Source: Giardia intestinalis
Lineage: Eukaryota
Assembly (NCBI GenBank): GCA_000002435.2
Contig: CM018792.1
DNA length: 64,000 bases
Strand: one strand, 5' to 3'
Part shown: piece after piece, positions 30,001 to 36,000 of the stretch
Numbering within the stretch: position 1 is the stretch's first letter
Layout of the letters: every line of letters begins with the position of its first letter
Position numbers: made by a program

Positions 30001-33000
30001 GTTGTCACGGAAACAGTAACAGAAACACTAGTGGTGTCAGTCGGACCAGAAGATGATGAGAGAGAACCTTCAATTGAGGCAGTGCTCTTGCTTGACACGG
30101 CGTCAGACGAACTACTGCCTTTAGTATCGGTTGGTTGGTTGCTTAATGAGTTAGAAGATGAGGAAGATACCGACGCTTGGGTCAGGTTGTCTGCCTGAGT
30201 TGTGGGATTTGCCGATGGTGACAATACAGACGAGCTGTGAATTGCAGATCTACTGATGGATGGAGACTTCTCAGAAGAGTTCCCCAAGTCAGAGGACGTG
30301 CTTATGTCAGACGAGTTGGCGGCTGAATTAACAGATGATGATCTCGAAGTCGAAGAGCTATTGTCCACTATTTGATATGAAACGTTTTGTGGCGTCCCTG
30401 GTGTGCTTATTCTGCTAACAGATGTGTAGGAAACATCTGGAATCAAATACTCAGAAATGATACCGATCACTTCTGTGTCTGTTGTGGCAGTCAGCGCGTC
30501 TCTAACATGAGACTGTGGCATTTTGCCAGATTCTAATAAAATGCGGATTGTCGTGATATGCAGGTTTGAGGCAGCATAAAACAGTGCTCCGCGCGAGTAT
30601 TTGTCTGTGCGGACGGGGACGTGATTAACTAGAAAGGAGACCATGTCAGAGCACCCCGCCTCAGAGCCAAGCATTAGAGCATCACGGCCCTCTGGCGTAA
30701 CACAGTCCTTCTCATCACTAATGAGAAGGTCTGCTATCTCTAGCTGTTCGGCCAATGTAGCAAACATGAGAGCTGAAAGCCCATCATTATTTTGAAGTCT
30801 TGCTTCATGGTTGTGTAGAAGCTTAGCAATGGTGAAGTAACCTTTGTGGGCCGCTATCATCAAGGCGGTGTCTCCTGACTGAGTCCTGCTCCCCTTGAAC
30901 TTACTGACGGACGCCTTGACCACGTCTACGCTGTTACTATCCACAGCATCAAACCACTCTGCAGCACTCTGCAGCTTTCTAATTTGAGACTCTCCAAGGT
31001 CCGTACTCGTCATTCTAATTTTTGGGTTTTGAATTCGGTTGAATAAATCATCAGAGAAGCGGAACTGGATTGCATAGACATGTGTTGCTGTCCGTACTGC
31101 ATTACTAGATATAGCTTTTACACGAATAATGAGTATTTCTTGTTATACTTAGCAACAGCTGCACCGAAAACCGAATACGTAGTGAATACTAATGCAATTG
31201 AGCATGTCTATGTAGATAACAGGGGATTTAAACTTCTCACAGTAATAGTCAGAGACGGCTTGTCTGGACTCTTGGTCTTTCGGAATCTTGGACCGGCTCG
31301 TGACAGTGTTAGATAACTAGTCCTGGTACTGGGGAGCTCTAGCAAGGAAGACGCTGACTTTATAGGCGAGTGTACACTAGTCTGATTACTTGGTACCGCC
31401 ACCTGACTAGAAAGAAGCTGCAAGCAACCCCGCCGTGCACCAGTGGAAGCAGAGCTAGAGATGTTGTTTGAGGTCTGTTTGAAGCACTTACTAATGGAGA
31501 TAGAAAGTGGAGCCCTATACGCAGATTTGGATAGAGTTGAGTTGCACATACTGTCACTGAGTATACTCTCAGACCTGCTAAGTGCGACTCCAGCTAATTG
31601 ATGGGTCAACGAATGAATAACATCTGTGTTAATATTATAGCTACTGAAACTGGAATTACTGGGTGAACTGTACTGGGCAGAGATGTCTCGCTGAACAGGG
31701 TCGCTACTTTCTGAAATTGTAATGCCTTGCTGTGCCATTATATATCTACCTCTTCTACGCGGACTACAGCTGTAACGACTTGGAGAGCGACGAATATAAT
31801 CATCGCATACCTCCGAAAATGCCTCCTGTGACGGTGCAAAGATGGGATCCTTTGTGGCCTTGTATGGCTTATCTTCACGCTGCCTGATGCAGTGACGGCG
31901 AGAACGAATGTAGTTATGCCTTTCGACCGCCTCATCAAAGGCAGAGTCGACATCTTCTAACACAAGATTGGAGCTCTCGTAGGATAACTCCAAGTTCTTA
32001 GGATCAAAGATACGGTGATAACTACTTGTGAAAAACCCGTCTTTGTCCACAACGAGACTAGTCTCCATGCTTTTGTTTGTATCAATTTACTTTAGAATAA
32101 GCACAATCCTGGATTCCACATAAATGTAGATACTAGCTCTTGGCCCCTGGCACCCAGCGTGGCGAGGTCACTGATAAGAGGATGGATCAGTCGTTGATTC
32201 TGGAACCGTTGAGTCTAGAGCTGTTGATGTGAACTCATAGTGAGTGGTCTGCTCATCCCGCAGCCTCTGATACTTAAGGCGTCTATTCTTCTTCATTATG
32301 GCAATGACGAAGGATAGGCCAATAATCAGTCCAGCCAGGACGACAATGGCTACTGGAAGAATGATGATCTCTGCTAGTGACACAGCCACCAATCCCTCGT
32401 CGTAATAGACCCTTCCATTTCGCCACCAATAAAATGGAACCGGCGCTGTCTCAATCCCATATTCATTTCGGCCCAATGCAATCCGAGAAGTACCGCCGTC
32501 ACACCAATCTGCACCCCAGGAATTTTGAATTCTCCAGTAAGCAACACCGTTCTCGTCTTCCTCCCAACCTATGATAAAGATAAGATGGTCAAGATACTCC
32601 GCAAAGTAGTGACGCTTGGCCTTATCGTTTGCACTGACGTCATCATCATCAGTATAGGCAGCCCTAGATGATGGCCCGTACGGCGAGCAGTTCTTAAACA
32701 AATCATTACCTGCATAAACGGAGACTGGTAAGGGACCATGACGATAGACTTCCCACTTGATTTCTTCAGGATCTGTAACGGCGCCTGTATAGCCCCCAAG
32801 AGGAAGGCCTGCAGTGAAGAAGTAGCGGTCCCCTTCTAGGAACTTACCTGCCTTGCACGGTCGCTCTACACCGTCTCCAGATAGGTACGATATGTAATAG
32901 CTGTTCTCTGTAAGGATCCCGAACTCTTCTGCAAACTTAACTACCATCTCGGCAAAGCCGCCACTGCACCCTTGAGCATACTGGTTACAGTCAAGGGCGT

Positions 33001-36000
33001 GCTGAACAGAGAGTCGTCTGGTCGCCCCGAGCTTGTCCTCGTCCTCACTAGCAACCATGACACGTGCTGTCATGGCCCAGACGGTGGCAGCTGTATAGCA
33101 CGACCCGCAGTGGCCCTGGTCAAATGGTTCAGGGACATATGACTTACCATTGACAGATCTCCAATCGAAGTTCTTGGGGAGCTTATCTCCTCTGTACGAT
33201 GAGTTACTATTCTCGGCAGCTGCACCCGTGGGGAACAAGCTATGTGAAAAGGACTGTCGGAAGCCTGCTGGTATATTAGTGACGTCACCGTTCTTTTTCA
33301 TTTGGATGTACATGTCTCCCGTTGGGACGGACACGTCTAGTTTTCTTCTAATAAGAGTGGGGTTGACCGGCCCCGGGCCAGACGGCTCATAATAATTGTC
33401 AACTGTGGTCAGGAGAGGCTTGACATTGGTGGCGCGTATGCAGGCCCTGTAGCGCCGCATCATGCCCTGTTTCACGGCCCACCCCATCTCTGGCTGGGAC
33501 TTGTAGCACATGGAATGAACAGTAGAAGAGTCTGGCACATCCTCCCAGGCCAAAAAGTAGAGATACTTCAAGTCGCCAATGTTAATCTGTATGGCCTGAG
33601 AGTAAACTTGCGACCAGGTCCCGCTGGCTCCTGTGTCCTCATCGACTGCAACGTTGGGTGACAAGAGCGTTATCATTCTGGTCTCTTTTACACGTATACT
33701 TGCAGGACAACTTGTTCTATCATTCGTTATTGTGTACTTAAAGCCAGTGGATTCTATCTTCCATGTCCCGAGAACTTGGTCATTAGCGCACCAGCAAGGA
33801 GTGTCTGCACTGGCAAGCCAGATAAAGATGGCGCAGAGAAGCAGACCTGCCATTTTTCTTTTGTGTTGTCAAAAGAATTCACTTATAAAGCTCAACCACA
33901 GAGCGCTTGCTCGACGTCCGTGTACTCCGAGGACTCCGCACTAACGCCCTCGAAATCTTGACAGCCCCACGAACTAACGTCACAGTACGCCCTAACCATC
34001 CATAGGTGATCCACTACAAATGGATTTTTATTCCCCTGGACTGTGACAATACGGTCGTGTTCGTCTAGCTCTTCGGCAGTTGGAGGATGCAGGACGTTCC
34101 AGTGAAGCAGAGTGTCAACATCCATGACGTCTCCGAGCCGGTCAAAGTAGTCTGGATAGGCTACGAAGAAATATGCAACTGCTCGTGCGATTTTTCCCTT
34201 AACCGCATCTCTCGGTTCGAAGCACACACCCTTTTCTACTTTGCTGTATCTATTAGGGAATCGGGGAGGCTCTTCTGTGATGTTATTTTTGCCATACCAC
34301 GCAGACACGTTTTCTGTCGGGATGTTATCGAAGGGGTAATTGGAGCGGGCGCTGTTTGCTGCTGCTAGTGCTGGGTAGAGGTGGTGGAGGTCGCTCTTCA
34401 TGGGTTCTAAACTATCAAAAAGGGATTGGGGAACCACATGCTCACAGTTCAGGTCTTCATTACAATTGGTCTCCTCCGTCATGTAGGGACAGTCTAGCTC
34501 TCTCCCAGTGTATACGCACGTGACAGCATTAGTCAAAGGGTTGTTATAAATGAATCCGTACATCTCTAGACGCGCTCTCTTGTATCCCAGATGCGTGTGC
34601 TCTGCGTAGTTCTTCGTTAAAAAGGATCTGAAGCTTGCTCCATAAGCTGTCGAGTTCACTAGACTCTCTTTGGCAAGCGCCAAACCCAGAAGCAGTGAGA
34701 CAGCAAGCATGCCACTTTATTAATCTCTCAATAATTTAACTTCAATTTTTGAAAGGCAAATGACAAACGACATTATTGCGGTCCAGAAGCGCTTTGAGGG
34801 TCTTCAGCACCAGTACTTGAAGCTTCAGCAAAGCAAGAGCAAGCTTGTTGATTTGCTCCACGAGAACGAACTGGTGCTGGAGGACATGAAGACCCTGAAG
34901 CCTGAGTGCAGCGTCTACCAGACTGTAGGGCCCACACTTCTTCCGCGTTCACATGACGAAGTAAGGAGCGCGTTGACAGAGAAAGTAGGCTTCATAAGGA
35001 AGCAATTGGAAGTAGCTAACAAGCAGCTCCAGGACCTTGAGGGTCAACTGCGTGAAATCAACAAGGAGCGCATGCAGATAGCCCGGAATCGCGGGGCTGT
35101 GAAGGGCGCTTCTGCCGGCATGTAAACCGCAGTCATCTCTTTGGCTCCTTTTCTTAAAACTTCCTCTGCAAAATGACGTCCCCGGATTTGCCAGTAGCTG
35201 CACATGAAATTCCTGGCTTTCTGAAGTGCCACATTGAAGGGATACTTCTTCAGTATGCACACTATATGAATGAGGTAGTTGAGCATCAACGGGTTCAGGG
35301 CTTGAACACCAGTGCCGTTTCATCTCTCTCAGAGCTACGAAAGAAAACATCACGTTTTATTGACTCTGTATGTGAGACTATAACGTCTTCTACAGAGGCT
35401 GGAGAGCTGCTCAGACAAAGCTTGGAAGCAATTATGCAAAAGATAGATATTTACCGAGTCATGAAGGCAGCATTTTCTGGGGCGCTTAACCAGGGCAACA
35501 AGACCACCATAGACTATGCCTCGTCTTGCATCCTACCCGCGGCTCTTCAACTTCCTCTTACTTTGGTTATTGTCAATCAAGTAAGCTTCGATGTACTCAA
35601 CTATATGTCCCTTCGTCCAGGTTCGCTGGTTTGTATGTCACGGGGGCCTACACCAACCTGGCTATTGAATGATATTTGCACAAATTATCTTAAGGCCAAG
35701 GCTAACACACTTTCAATATCGTCTAAGCCTCTTCAGCATCGCCTTTGTGTCGTCACTCGTATTTGGTTTGAAAACTCTATTCTTCCAGAGGATGCAGAAG
35801 CTTTCTTAATGACGGTTCCTATTCGGCGTCAAAGGAATCCGTTCTTCTTAGATTCAGGAGCTGAGACTCTTGGAGATATTTCTGAAGAAGATGTCCTCGC
35901 TATATATGGGCCAGATGCGTTGATCTCAGAGCCTGTTACTAAATTAGATCTCCTCTTCAAGAAACGATATACAAGCAAAGAGCAGTTACCATTTACCGGC

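What the first reader, a model, noticed from the sequence alone, without database searches (positions are those of the whole stretch)
32168..33853. Second, divergent membrane-anchored DPPI paralog 27 kb away on the opposite strand
It has the same architecture: signal peptide, DTPCWCANDQVLGTW exclusion-domain start, a catalytic domain with CGSCY / DHLIFIIGW / NSWG, a transmembrane helix, and a basic stop-transfer. It also carries a longer, roughly 30-aa acidic cytoplasmic tail. It shares only moderate identity with the 5405..7030 gene. It is therefore an old duplication with a conserved membrane anchor, which argues the anchor is functional rather than an annotation artefact.
Basis: partly seen in the sequence, partly recalled or inferred. 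Interest (0 to 1): 0.55.

Follow-up and report, generated by a model that had tools for sequence, protein, structure and literature searches.

The report
Giardia's second membrane-anchored cathepsin C

Summary
The ORF at 32168..33853 (-) is real. It encodes 561 aa: signal peptide, cathepsin C exclusion domain, papain-type domain with an intact Gln/Cys/His/Asn set, one transmembrane helix and a 41-aa cytosolic tail.

It is identical to G. intestinalis WB "Dipeptidyl-peptidase I" (XP_001709718.1, UniProt A8B4X1). Published peptides tie it to GL50803_8741, detected in the insoluble fraction of trophozoites.

The gene at 5405..7030 (+) is ESCP (UniProt Q95WU9; the listed sequence differs at two residues). 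ESCP is the published type I membrane cathepsin C whose YRPI tail motif directs AP-1-dependent transport to peripheral vacuoles.

The two proteins share 44% identity and no nucleotide tract longer than 11 nt. G. muris has an ortholog of each, in tandem, so the duplication predates the G. muris / G. intestinalis split.

The anchor is conserved in assemblages A, B and E, in a fourth lineage and in G. muris. It is older than the duplication: Spironucleus, Hexamita, Dysnectes, Monocercomonoides and Blattamonas DPPIs also carry a C-terminal helix plus a YxxΦ motif.

The acidic Ser/Thr-rich distal tail is under purifying selection.

Verdict: observation confirmed, interpretation supported, gene and principle already known.

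The parts
32168..33853 (-). Complete CDS of the 561-aa membrane-anchored dipeptidyl peptidase I paralog. It equals XP_001709718.1 / KAE8303794.1 / UniProt A8B4X1 and, by peptide match, GL50803_8741.
   Evidence: ORF. Exact-sequence look-up gives the accessions and names. Published tryptic peptides match exactly.
33806..33853 (-). Signal peptide, aa 1-16 (MAGLLLCAIFIWLASA). The predicted cleavage ASA|D would expose Asp17 as residue 1 of the mature exclusion domain.
   Evidence: Hydropathy. The model shows a helix at aa 2-13. Asp17 aligns with Asp1 of rat and human DPPI. The cleavage site is inferred from the -3/-1 rule.
33428..33805 (-). Cathepsin C exclusion domain, aa 17-142. Asp17 (33803..33805) is the residue that anchors the substrate N-terminus in DPPI.
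   Evidence: Pfam PF08773, E 3.4e-14. pLDDT is about 85-94 and the domain is all-beta. It aligns to 1jqp and 3pdf. D17, P19, C22, G29 and W31 are nearly invariant in the family alignment.
33182..33427 (-). Inter-domain linker, aa 143-224, in the position of the excised activation peptide of mammalian DPPI.
   Evidence: pLDDT is below 50 over aa 159-222. This is the most divergent luminal region between assemblages (dN 0.12). Excision is inferred, not shown.
32441..33181 (-). Papain-type catalytic domain, aa 225-471. Key residues: Gln246, catalytic Cys252 (33098..33100), His423 (32585..32587), Asn444 (32522..32524).
   Evidence: Pfam PF00112, E 3.7e-32. Catalytic columns in the alignment. dN/dS is 0.030 for assemblage A against B.
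32387..32440 (-). Juxtamembrane luminal stalk, aa 472-489 (…PVPFYWWRNGRVYYDEGL…).
   Evidence: It has no amino-acid change between assemblages A and B. G. muris has FYWWSTGPVYYDEGL at the same place.
32294..32386 (-). Single transmembrane helix: hydrophobic run aa 488-520, core 496-520.
   Evidence: Kyte-Doolittle 19-residue maximum of 3.02. Helix at 486-523 in the model. Hydrophobicity is conserved in all orthologs.
32258..32293 (-). Membrane-proximal cytosolic tail, aa 521-532: KKNRRLK (basic stop-transfer) followed by YQRL (aa 528-531, nt 32261..32272), a canonical YxxΦ adaptor-binding motif.
   Evidence: Read directly from the sequence. Y-Q-[KR]-L is kept in four G. intestinalis lineages although this segment has the highest dN in the gene (0.25).
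32171..32257 (-). Distal cytosolic tail, aa 533-561 (DEQTTHYEFTSTALDSTVPESTTDPSSYQ). It is acidic, Ser/Thr-rich and predicted disordered, and carries four S/T-x-x-D/E sites.
   Evidence: Composition. pLDDT is below 50. dN is 0.055 and dN/dS 0.044 for A against B. A similar stretch (EETTAFDLTSAPLDTD) occurs in the G. muris ortholog.
5405..7030 (+). The paralog ESCP (encystation-specific cysteine protease, Gl14566, UniProt Q95WU9): 541 aa, same architecture, short tail KSRGTKYRPIIA.
   Evidence: The homology search lists Q95WU9 at 100% identity; the listed sequence differs from the window at two residues. The gene id and the YRPI/AP-1 data come from PMC6115752 and PMC3986054.

Best explanation
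The gene encodes a catalytically intact, type I membrane-anchored dipeptidyl peptidase I (cathepsin C) of Giardia intestinalis, GL50803_8741. It is the sister paralog of ESCP.

Proposed mechanism:
- The signal peptide directs ER insertion. Its removal exposes Asp17 as the first residue of the exclusion domain.
- The exclusion domain and the papain-type domain (Gln246, Cys252, His423, Asn444) face the lumen. There they should remove dipeptides from free N-termini, as DPPI does.
- A single C-terminal helix holds the enzyme in the membrane.
- The cytosolic tail presents YQRL seven residues from the bilayer. A clathrin-adaptor mu subunit reads this motif and carries the enzyme to the lysosome-like peripheral vacuoles, possibly by way of the plasma membrane. 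This replaces the mannose-6-phosphate route used by soluble animal DPPI.
- The conserved acidic, Ser/Thr-rich distal tail, which ESCP lacks, probably adds a second sorting or regulatory determinant.

Shown here: architecture, intact catalytic residues, DPPI fold, TM helix, conservation of the motif, purifying selection, and protein expression in the insoluble fraction.

Inferred: signal-peptide cleavage site, exopeptidase activity, adaptor binding, vacuolar location, and any role for the acidic tail.
For: - Identity: exact match to XP_001709718.1 / A8B4X1 'Dipeptidyl-peptidase I', G. intestinalis WB.
- Domains: both Pfam domains score above their cut-offs.
- Relatives: the best solved relatives by sequence are rat and human DPPI, covering both domains, with Asp1, CGSC, NH and NSWG aligned.
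- Fold: the AlphaFold2 model (pTM 0.71) matches 1jqp and 3pdf with target-normalised TM-scores of 0.88 and 0.87.
- Catalytic residues: Gln, Cys, His, Asn and Asp1 are intact in this gene and all its orthologs.
- Topology: one C-terminal hydrophobic helix followed by a basic stop-transfer and a 41-aa hydrophilic tail.
- Motif conservation: YQRL or YQKL in assemblages A, A2, E, B and a fourth lineage; YRPI in G. muris.
- Wider pattern: 13 further fornicate or preaxostylid DPPI-like proteins have a TM helix, and 9 of them have a YxxΦ motif 6-17 residues after it. The non-metamonad DPPIs examined have no such helix.
- Selection: dN/dS is 0.059 for the whole gene and 0.044 for the distal tail.
- Expression: three exact tryptic peptides were found in the insoluble fraction of trophozoites, and the source table lists the gene with both TM and signal peptide.
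Against: - No experiment on this particular paralog was found in the searchable literature. Localisation, adaptor binding and enzyme activity are all extrapolated from ESCP and from mammalian DPPI.
- ESCP itself was reported as an endoproteolytic processor of CWP2, and later work credits the cathepsin B GlCP2 with that role (PMC13315228). The biochemical behaviour of Giardia cathepsin C enzymes is therefore not settled.
- Clathrin-mediated trafficking in Giardia is non-canonical (PMC4954726), so a mammalian-style reading of YxxΦ may not transfer fully.
- dS between assemblages is near saturation (1.1 or more), so the region-wise dN/dS values are rough, especially for the 29-codon tail.
- The detected peptides all come from the catalytic domain. 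They do not prove that the mature enzyme stays attached to the helix.
Confidence: 0.72

Rival explanations
1. The anchor is only a transient delivery device. The protein travels as a membrane-bound zymogen, and in the peripheral vacuole the luminal enzyme is clipped off in the stalk or linker and then acts as a soluble DPPI, possibly a tetramer. This modifies the best explanation rather than excluding it.
For: Mammalian DPPI is matured by several internal cleavages (PMC6801622, seen as title and abstract only; otherwise established knowledge). The linker at aa 159-222 and residues 482-491 just before the helix are low-confidence, probably flexible segments. The published peptides all lie in the catalytic domain.
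Against: The peptides were found in the insoluble fraction. The 18-aa stalk is completely conserved between assemblages A and B and is similar in G. muris. That fits a structural role as well as it fits a cleavage site. ESCP-HA tagged at the tail still labels peripheral vacuoles (PMC6115752 figure legend).
Confidence: 0.25
2. It is mainly a plasma-membrane ecto-peptidase that trims host or luminal peptides for uptake. YQRL would then serve only for endocytic recycling.
For: YxxΦ motifs also drive AP-2-dependent endocytosis. ESCP is cited as a case of receptor-mediated endocytosis in Giardia (PMC4954726). The proteomic paper discusses proteins with TM and signal peptide as candidate surface proteins.
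Against: A Tyr about 7 residues from the membrane is the spacing typical of lysosomal membrane proteins such as LAMP-1 (established knowledge). ESCP, with the same design, is found in peripheral vacuoles. DPPI enzymes work at acidic pH and need reducing conditions (established knowledge). No DPPI appears in the text and tables that could be searched of the trophozoite secretome paper, though that says nothing about surface exposure.
Confidence: 0.12
3. It is a redundant encystation endoprotease that does the same job as ESCP (cyst wall protein processing).
For: It is the paralog of ESCP and has the same architecture.
Against: It retains the complete exclusion domain and Asp1, which in DPPI block endopeptidase action. 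Its peptides were detected in non-encysting trophozoites. Its tail differs from that of ESCP. The two genes have been separate since before the G. muris split, and in G. muris only this lineage keeps the Cys/His/Asn set.
Confidence: 0.08
4. It is a recent duplicate, a gene-conversion product or a decaying pseudogene, and the hydrophobic C-terminus is an annotation or read-through artefact.
For: None was found. The other two Giardia cathepsin C-like paralogs do show gene conversion.
Against: The genes share 44% aa identity and no nucleotide word longer than 11 nt. The ORF is intact, with the same stop position in five lineages. dN/dS is 0.059. Peptides have been detected. A 41-aa hydrophilic tail after the helix rules out a GPI-signal reading.
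Confidence: 0.01

Closest known systems
ESCP, encystation-specific cysteine protease of Giardia intestinalis (Gl14566, UniProt Q95WU9; Touz et al. 2002-2004 as cited in PMC6115752 and PMC3423367). It lies in this same window at 5405..7030 (+).
   Same: Both have a signal peptide, an exclusion domain starting DTP, a C1 domain with CGSC / NH or DH / NSW, one C-terminal TM helix, a basic stop-transfer and a YxxΦ motif 6-7 residues after the helix. Both descend from one tandem duplication.
   Different: Identity is only 44%. The motif is YQRL instead of YRPI. The tail is 41 aa with a conserved acidic Ser/Thr-rich extension, against 12 aa ending just after the motif. The G. muris ortholog of this gene keeps the catalytic residues, whereas the ESCP-position ortholog there does not. 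This paralog has no published functional study that I could find.
Mammalian dipeptidyl peptidase I / cathepsin C (PDB 1jqp rat; 3pdf and 1k3b human)
   Same: The two-domain fold matches (target-normalised TM-score 0.87-0.88). Asp1, the oxyanion Gln and the Cys-His-Asn set are present, with an internal linker in the propeptide position.
   Different: The mammalian enzyme is soluble, sorted by mannose-6-phosphate and tetrameric (established knowledge). The Giardia protein has a C-terminal TM helix and a cytosolic sorting tail. It also has an extra acidic loop at aa 394-419 (low pLDDT). Sequence identity is about 22-28%.
Tyrosine-based YxxΦ sorting signals of lysosomal and TGN membrane proteins (LAMP-1 ...AGYQTI, TGN38 ...SDYQRL; established knowledge, summarised for Giardia in PMC6115752)
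   Same: The tetrapeptide YQRL is literally that of TGN38. The spacing of 7 residues from the membrane resembles LAMP-type lysosomal signals. Giardia GlVps (YQII) and ESCP (YRPI) use such motifs to bind AP-1.
   Different: Here the motif is followed by 30 more residues rather than lying at the C-terminus. Binding to Giardia adaptors has not been tested for this tail.
Membrane-anchored DPPI-like proteins of other metamonads (Spironucleus salmonicida, Hexamita inflata, Dysnectes brevis, Monocercomonoides exilis, Blattamonas nauphoetae)
   Same: All have the exclusion domain, the C1 domain, a C-terminal TM helix and a YxxΦ motif: YKKI, YEQV, YQPL, YVKI, YNSI, YSSF, YQKF.
   Different: Their tails are short and lack the acidic extension. 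Identity to gene 2 is 30-43%. The Monocercomonoides protein has lost the catalytic Cys and His.

Membership tests
Dipeptidyl peptidase I / cathepsin C (MEROPS C1 family; Pfam CathepsinC_exc + Peptidase_C1) | N-terminal exclusion domain fused to a papain-type domain | tested here: met
   PF08773 scores E 3.4e-14 (53.6 bits against a cut-off of 27). PF00112 scores E 3.7e-32. The Foldseek top hits, 1jqp and 3pdf, cover both domains.
Dipeptidyl peptidase I / cathepsin C (MEROPS C1 family; Pfam CathepsinC_exc + Peptidase_C1) | Asp as residue 1 of the mature chain (it binds the substrate's free N-terminus) | tested here: met
   ASA|DTPCWC aligns with DTPANC of the rat and human mature chains. D17 is nearly invariant in the family. 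The cleavage itself is inferred.
Dipeptidyl peptidase I / cathepsin C (MEROPS C1 family; Pfam CathepsinC_exc + Peptidase_C1) | Catalytic Cys-His-Asn and oxyanion-hole Gln | tested here: met
   Gln246, Cys252, His423 and Asn444 are present in the aligned columns.
Dipeptidyl peptidase I / cathepsin C (MEROPS C1 family; Pfam CathepsinC_exc + Peptidase_C1) | Dipeptidyl aminopeptidase activity, halide dependence and tetramer formation | not testable with these tools
   These need the purified enzyme.
Dipeptidyl peptidase I / cathepsin C (MEROPS C1 family; Pfam CathepsinC_exc + Peptidase_C1) | Soluble luminal enzyme (true of the animal members; not a defining feature of the fold) | tested here: not met
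   A C-terminal TM helix and a 41-aa tail are present. This is the known peculiarity of the Giardia and metamonad branch.
ESCP-type membrane cathepsin C of Giardia | Type I topology: signal peptide plus a single C-terminal TM helix followed by basic residues | tested here: met
   Hydropathy and model. GiardiaDB-derived flags for TM and signal peptide on GL50803_8741 appear in PMC5070761 Table 3.
ESCP-type membrane cathepsin C of Giardia | Cytosolic tyrosine-based YxxΦ motif close to the membrane | tested here: met
   YQRL lies at aa 528-531, 7 residues after the helix, and is conserved as Y-Q-[KR]-L.
ESCP-type membrane cathepsin C of Giardia | AP-1 (mu1) binding and localisation to peripheral vacuoles | not testable with these tools
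   This is shown only for ESCP (PMC6115752).
ESCP-type membrane cathepsin C of Giardia | Encystation-specific induction | tested here: inconclusive
   No C[TA]ACAG (Myb-type) site lies in the 38-bp upstream spacer, but none lies upstream of ESCP either, and the motif occurs at chance frequency in the window. The protein was detected in trophozoites.

The most novel reading that the evidence does not exclude
This has three linked parts.

(1) Direct membrane anchoring plus a cytosolic YxxΦ signal may be the ancestral metamonad way of delivering DPPI to the lysosomal compartment without mannose-6-phosphate.

(2) Within Giardia, the GL50803_8741 lineage, not ESCP, may be the conserved, catalytically intact DPPI. 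In G. muris the ESCP-position ortholog has Cys->Ser, Asn->Asp and Tyr->Phe changes.

(3) The conserved acidic tail motif of this lineage (TT-x-[YF]-[DE]-[FL]-TS-x-x-LD) may be a second, so far undescribed sorting or regulatory signal that gives it a route or timing different from ESCP.
Probability: 0.35. Interest if true: 0.45.

Novelty: already known. Interest (0 to 1): 0.25.

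Why it matters
For the scan, this finding can be closed. It is a correctly read but already annotated gene, and the principle it illustrates (a membrane-anchored cathepsin C sorted by a tyrosine motif) was established for its neighbour ESCP two decades ago.

For Giardia biology there is some residual value:
- Recent reviews state that Giardia has a single cathepsin C gene, ESCP (PMC10454693, PMC13315228). In fact there are four cathepsin C-like genes (PMC5955458).
- Judging by the assemblage B copies of the other two, only ESCP and this gene keep the catalytic residues.
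- This gene is the paralog whose G. muris ortholog keeps the catalytic residues, and it is expressed in trophozoites.
- Any inhibitor, knock-down or trafficking study that treats ESCP as the only cathepsin C therefore ignores a probable second active enzyme with its own cytosolic tail.

The metamonad-wide combination of a TM helix with YxxΦ is also a tidy example of hydrolase sorting in lineages without a mannose-6-phosphate pathway.

Tried and rejected
- Recent duplication or gene conversion between the two window genes: rejected. blastn finds only three short tracts of about 70% identity, and the longest exact word is 11 nt.
- The idea that the 'hybrid protease' recombination reported for GS (GL50803_28651 x 22553, PMC2723961) involves these two inverted genes: rejected. 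Gene 2 maps to 8741 through its peptides and ESCP is 14566. The other two paralogs, which lie 5 gene models apart, share an 81-aa 100% identical tract inside 41% overall identity and fit that report.
- GPI-anchor reading of the C-terminal hydrophobic segment: rejected, because 41 hydrophilic residues follow it.
- Myb-type encystation promoter motif C[TA]ACAG: 78 matches against 74 expected, and none in either promoter. Uninformative.
- The two 294-aa ORFs at 47448 and 55812 looked like a possible duplicate pair but are unrelated.
- Region-wise dN/dS against the more distant lineage (L006): dS is saturated (infinite under Jukes-Cantor), so only the dN values are usable.
- A first attempt at a bootstrapped tree with Biopython's distance calculator timed out. 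I redid it with my own distance code. It is neighbour-joining only; no maximum-likelihood program was available.
- Touz 2004 (PMC452563) and DuBois 2008 (PMC2440617) are not held in the library. Statements about those papers rest on reviews that cite them and on my own recollection.
- The G. muris genome paper says nothing specific about cathepsin C in its main text.

Full report
**1. Observation**

The window carries an uninterrupted ORF at 32168..33853 on the minus strand (561 aa) and another at 5405..7030 on the plus strand (541 aa).

Pfam assigns both proteins a cathepsin C exclusion domain and a papain-family C1 domain, above the curated cut-offs. For the 561-aa protein these cover aa 17-142 and aa 225-471.

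BLASTP gives 44% identity over 539 residues. By region it is 45% in the exclusion domain, 38% in the linker, 54% in the catalytic domain, 31% in the transmembrane segment and 33% in the short alignable part of the tail.

The genes are on opposite strands with 25,137 bp between them. tblastn finds no third copy in the window.

Hydropathy shows two hydrophobic segments only, the N-terminal signal and a C-terminal one with a Kyte-Doolittle 19-residue maximum of 3.02. The hydrophobic run spans aa 488-520. After it the tail reads KKNRRLK-YQRL-R-DEQTTHYEFTSTALDSTVPESTTDPSSYQ:
- 41 residues in all;
- the first 12 are basic;
- the last 29 have no basic residue, six acidic residues and twelve Ser/Thr.

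The 'about 30-aa acidic tail' is the distal part of the tail.

**2. Identity of the two genes and of the organism**

An exact-sequence look-up shows that the 561-aa protein is XP_001709718.1 / KAE8303794.1 / UniProt A8B4X1, 'Dipeptidyl-peptidase I', Giardia intestinalis ATCC 50803 (WB clone C6). Named orthologs exist in isolates DH, GS (ATCC 50581), assemblage B and P15. The same protein is encoded on many Logan assemblies of Giardia sequencing runs, always next to an Endonuclease_1 gene and a Prefoldin_2 gene.

The homology search lists UniProt Q95WU9, 'Encystation-specific protease', at 100% identity to the 541-aa protein. The listed sequence differs from the window at two residues. The literature gives ESCP the gene id Gl14566 (PMC3986054; PMC6115752).

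A proteomic study lists three peptides for 'Dipeptidyl-peptidase I precursor gi|159118999': NCSPYGPSSR, VMVASEDEDKLGATR and HGPLPVSVYAGNDLFK. All came from the insoluble fraction of assemblage AI trophozoites (PMC5070761 supplement). All three are exact tryptic substrings of the 561-aa protein and are absent from ESCP.

Table 3 of the same paper names that protein GL50803_8741 and marks it as having both a transmembrane domain and a signal peptide. The gene in question is therefore GL50803_8741. It is made as protein in trophozoites, and its membrane-anchor prediction is already in the public annotation.

**3. It is a bona fide DPPI by sequence and fold**

The best solved relatives by sequence are rat and human DPPI. 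The alignments cover the exclusion domain (DTPCWC against DTPANC, starting at mature residue 1) and the catalytic domain (CGSCY, the catalytic His in DH/NH, NSWG).

In a 31-sequence family alignment, Q246 and H423 are invariant. D17, P19, C22, C252 and N444 are nearly invariant.

An AlphaFold2 model built on that alignment has pTM 0.71. Its features:
- pLDDT of about 85-94 in the exclusion and catalytic domains;
- a long helix at aa 486-523;
- low confidence for the linker (159-222), an acidic loop (394-419) and the tail (524-561).

Foldseek against the PDB ranks rat DPPI 1jqp and human DPPI 3pdf first, with target-normalised TM-scores of 0.88 and 0.87. Single-domain cathepsins follow.

**4. 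Age of the duplication**

At the nucleotide level the two genes share only three short tracts of about 70% identity, and no exact word longer than 11 nt. There is no sign of recent duplication or conversion.

A search of 1.84 billion representative proteins plus name look-ups recovered two G. muris DPPI-like proteins, TNJ29350 (541 aa) and TNJ29347 (477 aa).

In a neighbour-joining tree (424 columns, 200 bootstraps):
- gene 2 and its assemblage orthologs group with TNJ29350 at 83%;
- ESCP and its orthologs group with TNJ29347 at 57%;
- the whole Giardia clade is separated from Spironucleus and Hexamita at 74%.

The G. muris locus settles the weaker node. TNJ29347 follows the same three genes that precede ESCP in the window: a 1037-aa protein, a 184-aa protein and an ankyrin protein on the opposite strand. 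Its best match in the window is ESCP. TNJ29350 lies 1.2 kb further on, on the same strand, and its best match is gene 2.

The pair therefore arose as a tandem duplicate before G. muris and G. intestinalis diverged. In G. intestinalis the second copy now lies 25 kb away and is inverted. The linkage is kept in assemblage B, where the two orthologs lie on one contig with accession numbers 12-13 apart.

**5. Conservation of the anchor and tail**

The syntenic orthologs are L005 (assemblage B type, 89% identity) and L006 (a further lineage, 85%). These and the named DH, GS and P15 proteins all keep four features:
- the hydrophobic helix;
- a basic stop-transfer;
- Y-Q-[KR]-L;
- the distal sequence HY[ED]FTSTA[LM]DST[VI]P[ED]S[AT]TD.SSYQ.

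Nei-Gojobori estimates for assemblage A against B:

| Region | dN | dN/dS |
|---|---|---|
| Whole gene (dS 1.10, near saturation) | 0.066 | 0.059 |
| Catalytic domain | 0.034 | 0.030 |
| Exclusion domain | 0.065 | 0.062 |
| TM segment (conservative I/V/L swaps) | 0.15 | 0.34 |
| Proximal basic tail (Tyr motif intact) | 0.25 | not defined (dS saturated) |
| Distal acidic tail | 0.055 | 0.044 |

The distal tail is thus as constrained as the folded domains.

The G. muris ortholog has YRPI followed by EETTAFDLTSAPLDTD..., which resembles the distal tail of gene 2. The long acidic tail is therefore probably ancestral to this lineage. ESCP either lost it or never had it.

**6. The anchor is older than the duplication**

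All diplomonad homologs recovered have a C-terminal helix followed by a YxxΦ motif: Spironucleus salmonicida (YKKI) and four Hexamita inflata proteins (YEQV, YEQV, YQPL, YVKI).

Among the 143 additional best representatives, only 10 have a C-terminal hydrophobic segment. The named ones are all metamonads:
- G. muris (two proteins);
- two more G. intestinalis paralogs;
- Dysnectes brevis (YNSI);
- Blattamonas nauphoetae (YQKF);
- Monocercomonoides exilis (YSSF).

Non-metamonad DPPIs such as the fish protein end right after the catalytic domain. Only the top 150 of 10,469 hits were examined, so absence elsewhere is not proven.

**7. What is already known**

[quoted passage not shown] It is also called 'membrane Cathepsin C' delivered in an AP-1-dependent way (PMC3423367).

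From memory, not checked here: Touz et al. 2002 (J Biol Chem 277:8474) already stressed the transmembrane domain and short cytoplasmic tail as the features that set ESCP apart from other cathepsins C.

The WB genome is stated to contain four cathepsin C-like genes (PMC5955458). Two recent reviews nevertheless speak of a single one, ESCP (PMC10454693; PMC13315228). I found no paper that studies GL50803_8741 itself.

**8. Mechanism proposed**

Shown: the architecture, the intact catalytic apparatus, the helix, the conserved YQRL at 7 residues from the membrane, purifying selection on the whole tail, and expression in the insoluble fraction.

Inferred by analogy with ESCP, with GlVps (YQII) and with LAMP- and TGN38-type signals: an adaptor mu subunit reads the tail and carries the enzyme to the lysosome-like peripheral vacuoles, where the luminal domains act as a dipeptidyl aminopeptidase. 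Anchoring would replace the mannose-6-phosphate-based sorting used for soluble DPPI in animals.

The acidic, Ser/Thr-rich distal tail carries four S/T-x-x-D/E sites. I suggest it is a second, possibly phosphorylation-dependent determinant. This is speculation supported only by its conservation. Whether the luminal enzyme is later clipped from the helix cannot be decided here.

**9. Family context seen on the way**

The other two G. intestinalis paralogs (assemblage B sequences P0283 and P0148), the G. muris ESCP-position ortholog, and the unnamed proteins P0019 and P0141 all replace the catalytic Cys by Ser (CNSS or CNTS). They also replace the Asn by Asp. Most keep the His.

If the WB copies of the other two paralogs resemble the assemblage B ones, ESCP and GL50803_8741 are the only G. 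intestinalis cathepsin C-like genes with the canonical residues. In G. muris only the 8741-type gene has them.

P0148 and P0283 are 41% identical overall but share an 81-residue tract of 100% identity. This is a clear conversion tract that fits the 'hybrid proteases' reported for GL50803_28651 and GL50803_22553 in isolate GS (PMC2723961).

**10. Verdict**

The gene is already annotated, its TM and signal-peptide status is in GiardiaDB-derived tables, and the membrane-anchor principle was demonstrated on the neighbouring paralog. Novelty is 'already known' and interest is low to moderate.

What remains of interest is comparative:
- the overlooked YQRL motif and the conserved acidic tail;
- the fact that this paralog rather than ESCP has the catalytically intact G. 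muris ortholog;
- the metamonad-wide distribution of TM-anchored DPPI.

Noticed in passing
L010 7359-8792 (+) (G. muris TNJ29347 = P0143); also P0019 and P0141: The G. muris gene in the ESCP position has CGSC->CNSS (catalytic Cys->Ser) and NSW->DP (Asn->Asp) with His kept. It has no DTP N-terminus, and its tail is KFRPIVA instead of KYRPIIA. It is either a dead enzyme or a Ser-His-Asp set in a papain fold. So ESCP as an active cysteine protease is not conserved across the genus.
   Followed up: partly
P0148 (ESU44834.1, 573 aa) and P0283 (ESU44839.1, 498 aa), G. intestinalis assemblage B; not in the window: These are two further TM-anchored cathepsin C-like paralogs, 5 gene models apart. Both have Cys->Ser and Asn->Asp changes, and one has also lost the His. 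They are 41% identical overall but share an 81-aa tract of 100% identity. That conversion tract probably corresponds to the 'hybrid proteases' GL50803_28651 / 22553 of Franzen et al. 2009.
   Followed up: partly
P0006-P0009, P0020, P0140, P0168, P0210: A C-terminal TM helix plus a YxxΦ motif occurs in DPPI-like proteins of Spironucleus, Hexamita, Dysnectes, Blattamonas and Monocercomonoides. It was not seen in the non-metamonad DPPIs sampled. This suggests an ancestral metamonad sorting solution.
   Followed up: partly
window 5405..7030 (+): The window's ESCP differs from the listed UniProt Q95WU9 sequence at two residues: YFSRGD against YFFRGD, and VNHCVLL against VNHFVLL. The second lies next to the catalytic His. 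All other assemblages have Ser and Cys as in the window, so the deposited cDNA may carry errors or strain variants.
   Followed up: no
L005 3001-4728; P0001, P0109, P0111, P0137: Many assemblage B and related gene models for this DPPI are 575 aa long. They start at an upstream ATG that adds MLKVNSFGKTNRK before the signal peptide. This is probably a mis-called start, since it would bury the signal peptide. The GS model EES99165.1 (562 aa) starts at the conserved MAG.
   Followed up: no
literature (PMC10454693, PMC13315228 against PMC5955458): Two recent reviews state that Giardia has a single cathepsin C gene (ESCP). An earlier primary paper counts four cathepsin C-like genes.
   Followed up: yes
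P0003 (L008, Logan SRR14944321) and P0004 (L009, JGI metagenome 3300010163): Two unnamed Giardia-like DPPIs, 45-47% identical to both window genes, have intact catalytic residues and a TM helix but no Tyr in the tail. One tail contains DAQPML, which looks like a [DE]xxxL[LI]-type signal. The source organism is unknown.
   Followed up: no
window 44277..46805 (-), with 45150..46835 (+) and 45158..46792 (+): An 842-aa variant-specific surface protein gene (Pfam VSP, E 3e-137) has two very long antisense ORFs of 561 and 544 aa. These are most likely a by-product of the Cys-rich repetitive coding sequence.
   Followed up: no
window 33854..33891 and 32069..32167: Packing is very tight. Only 38 bp separate the stop of the upstream Endonuclease_1 gene from this gene's ATG. 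That spacer contains an AGTGAA element (the Giardia polyadenylation-signal consensus, from memory) and an A-rich stretch right before the ATG. An AGTAAA lies about 75 nt after this gene's stop.
   Followed up: no
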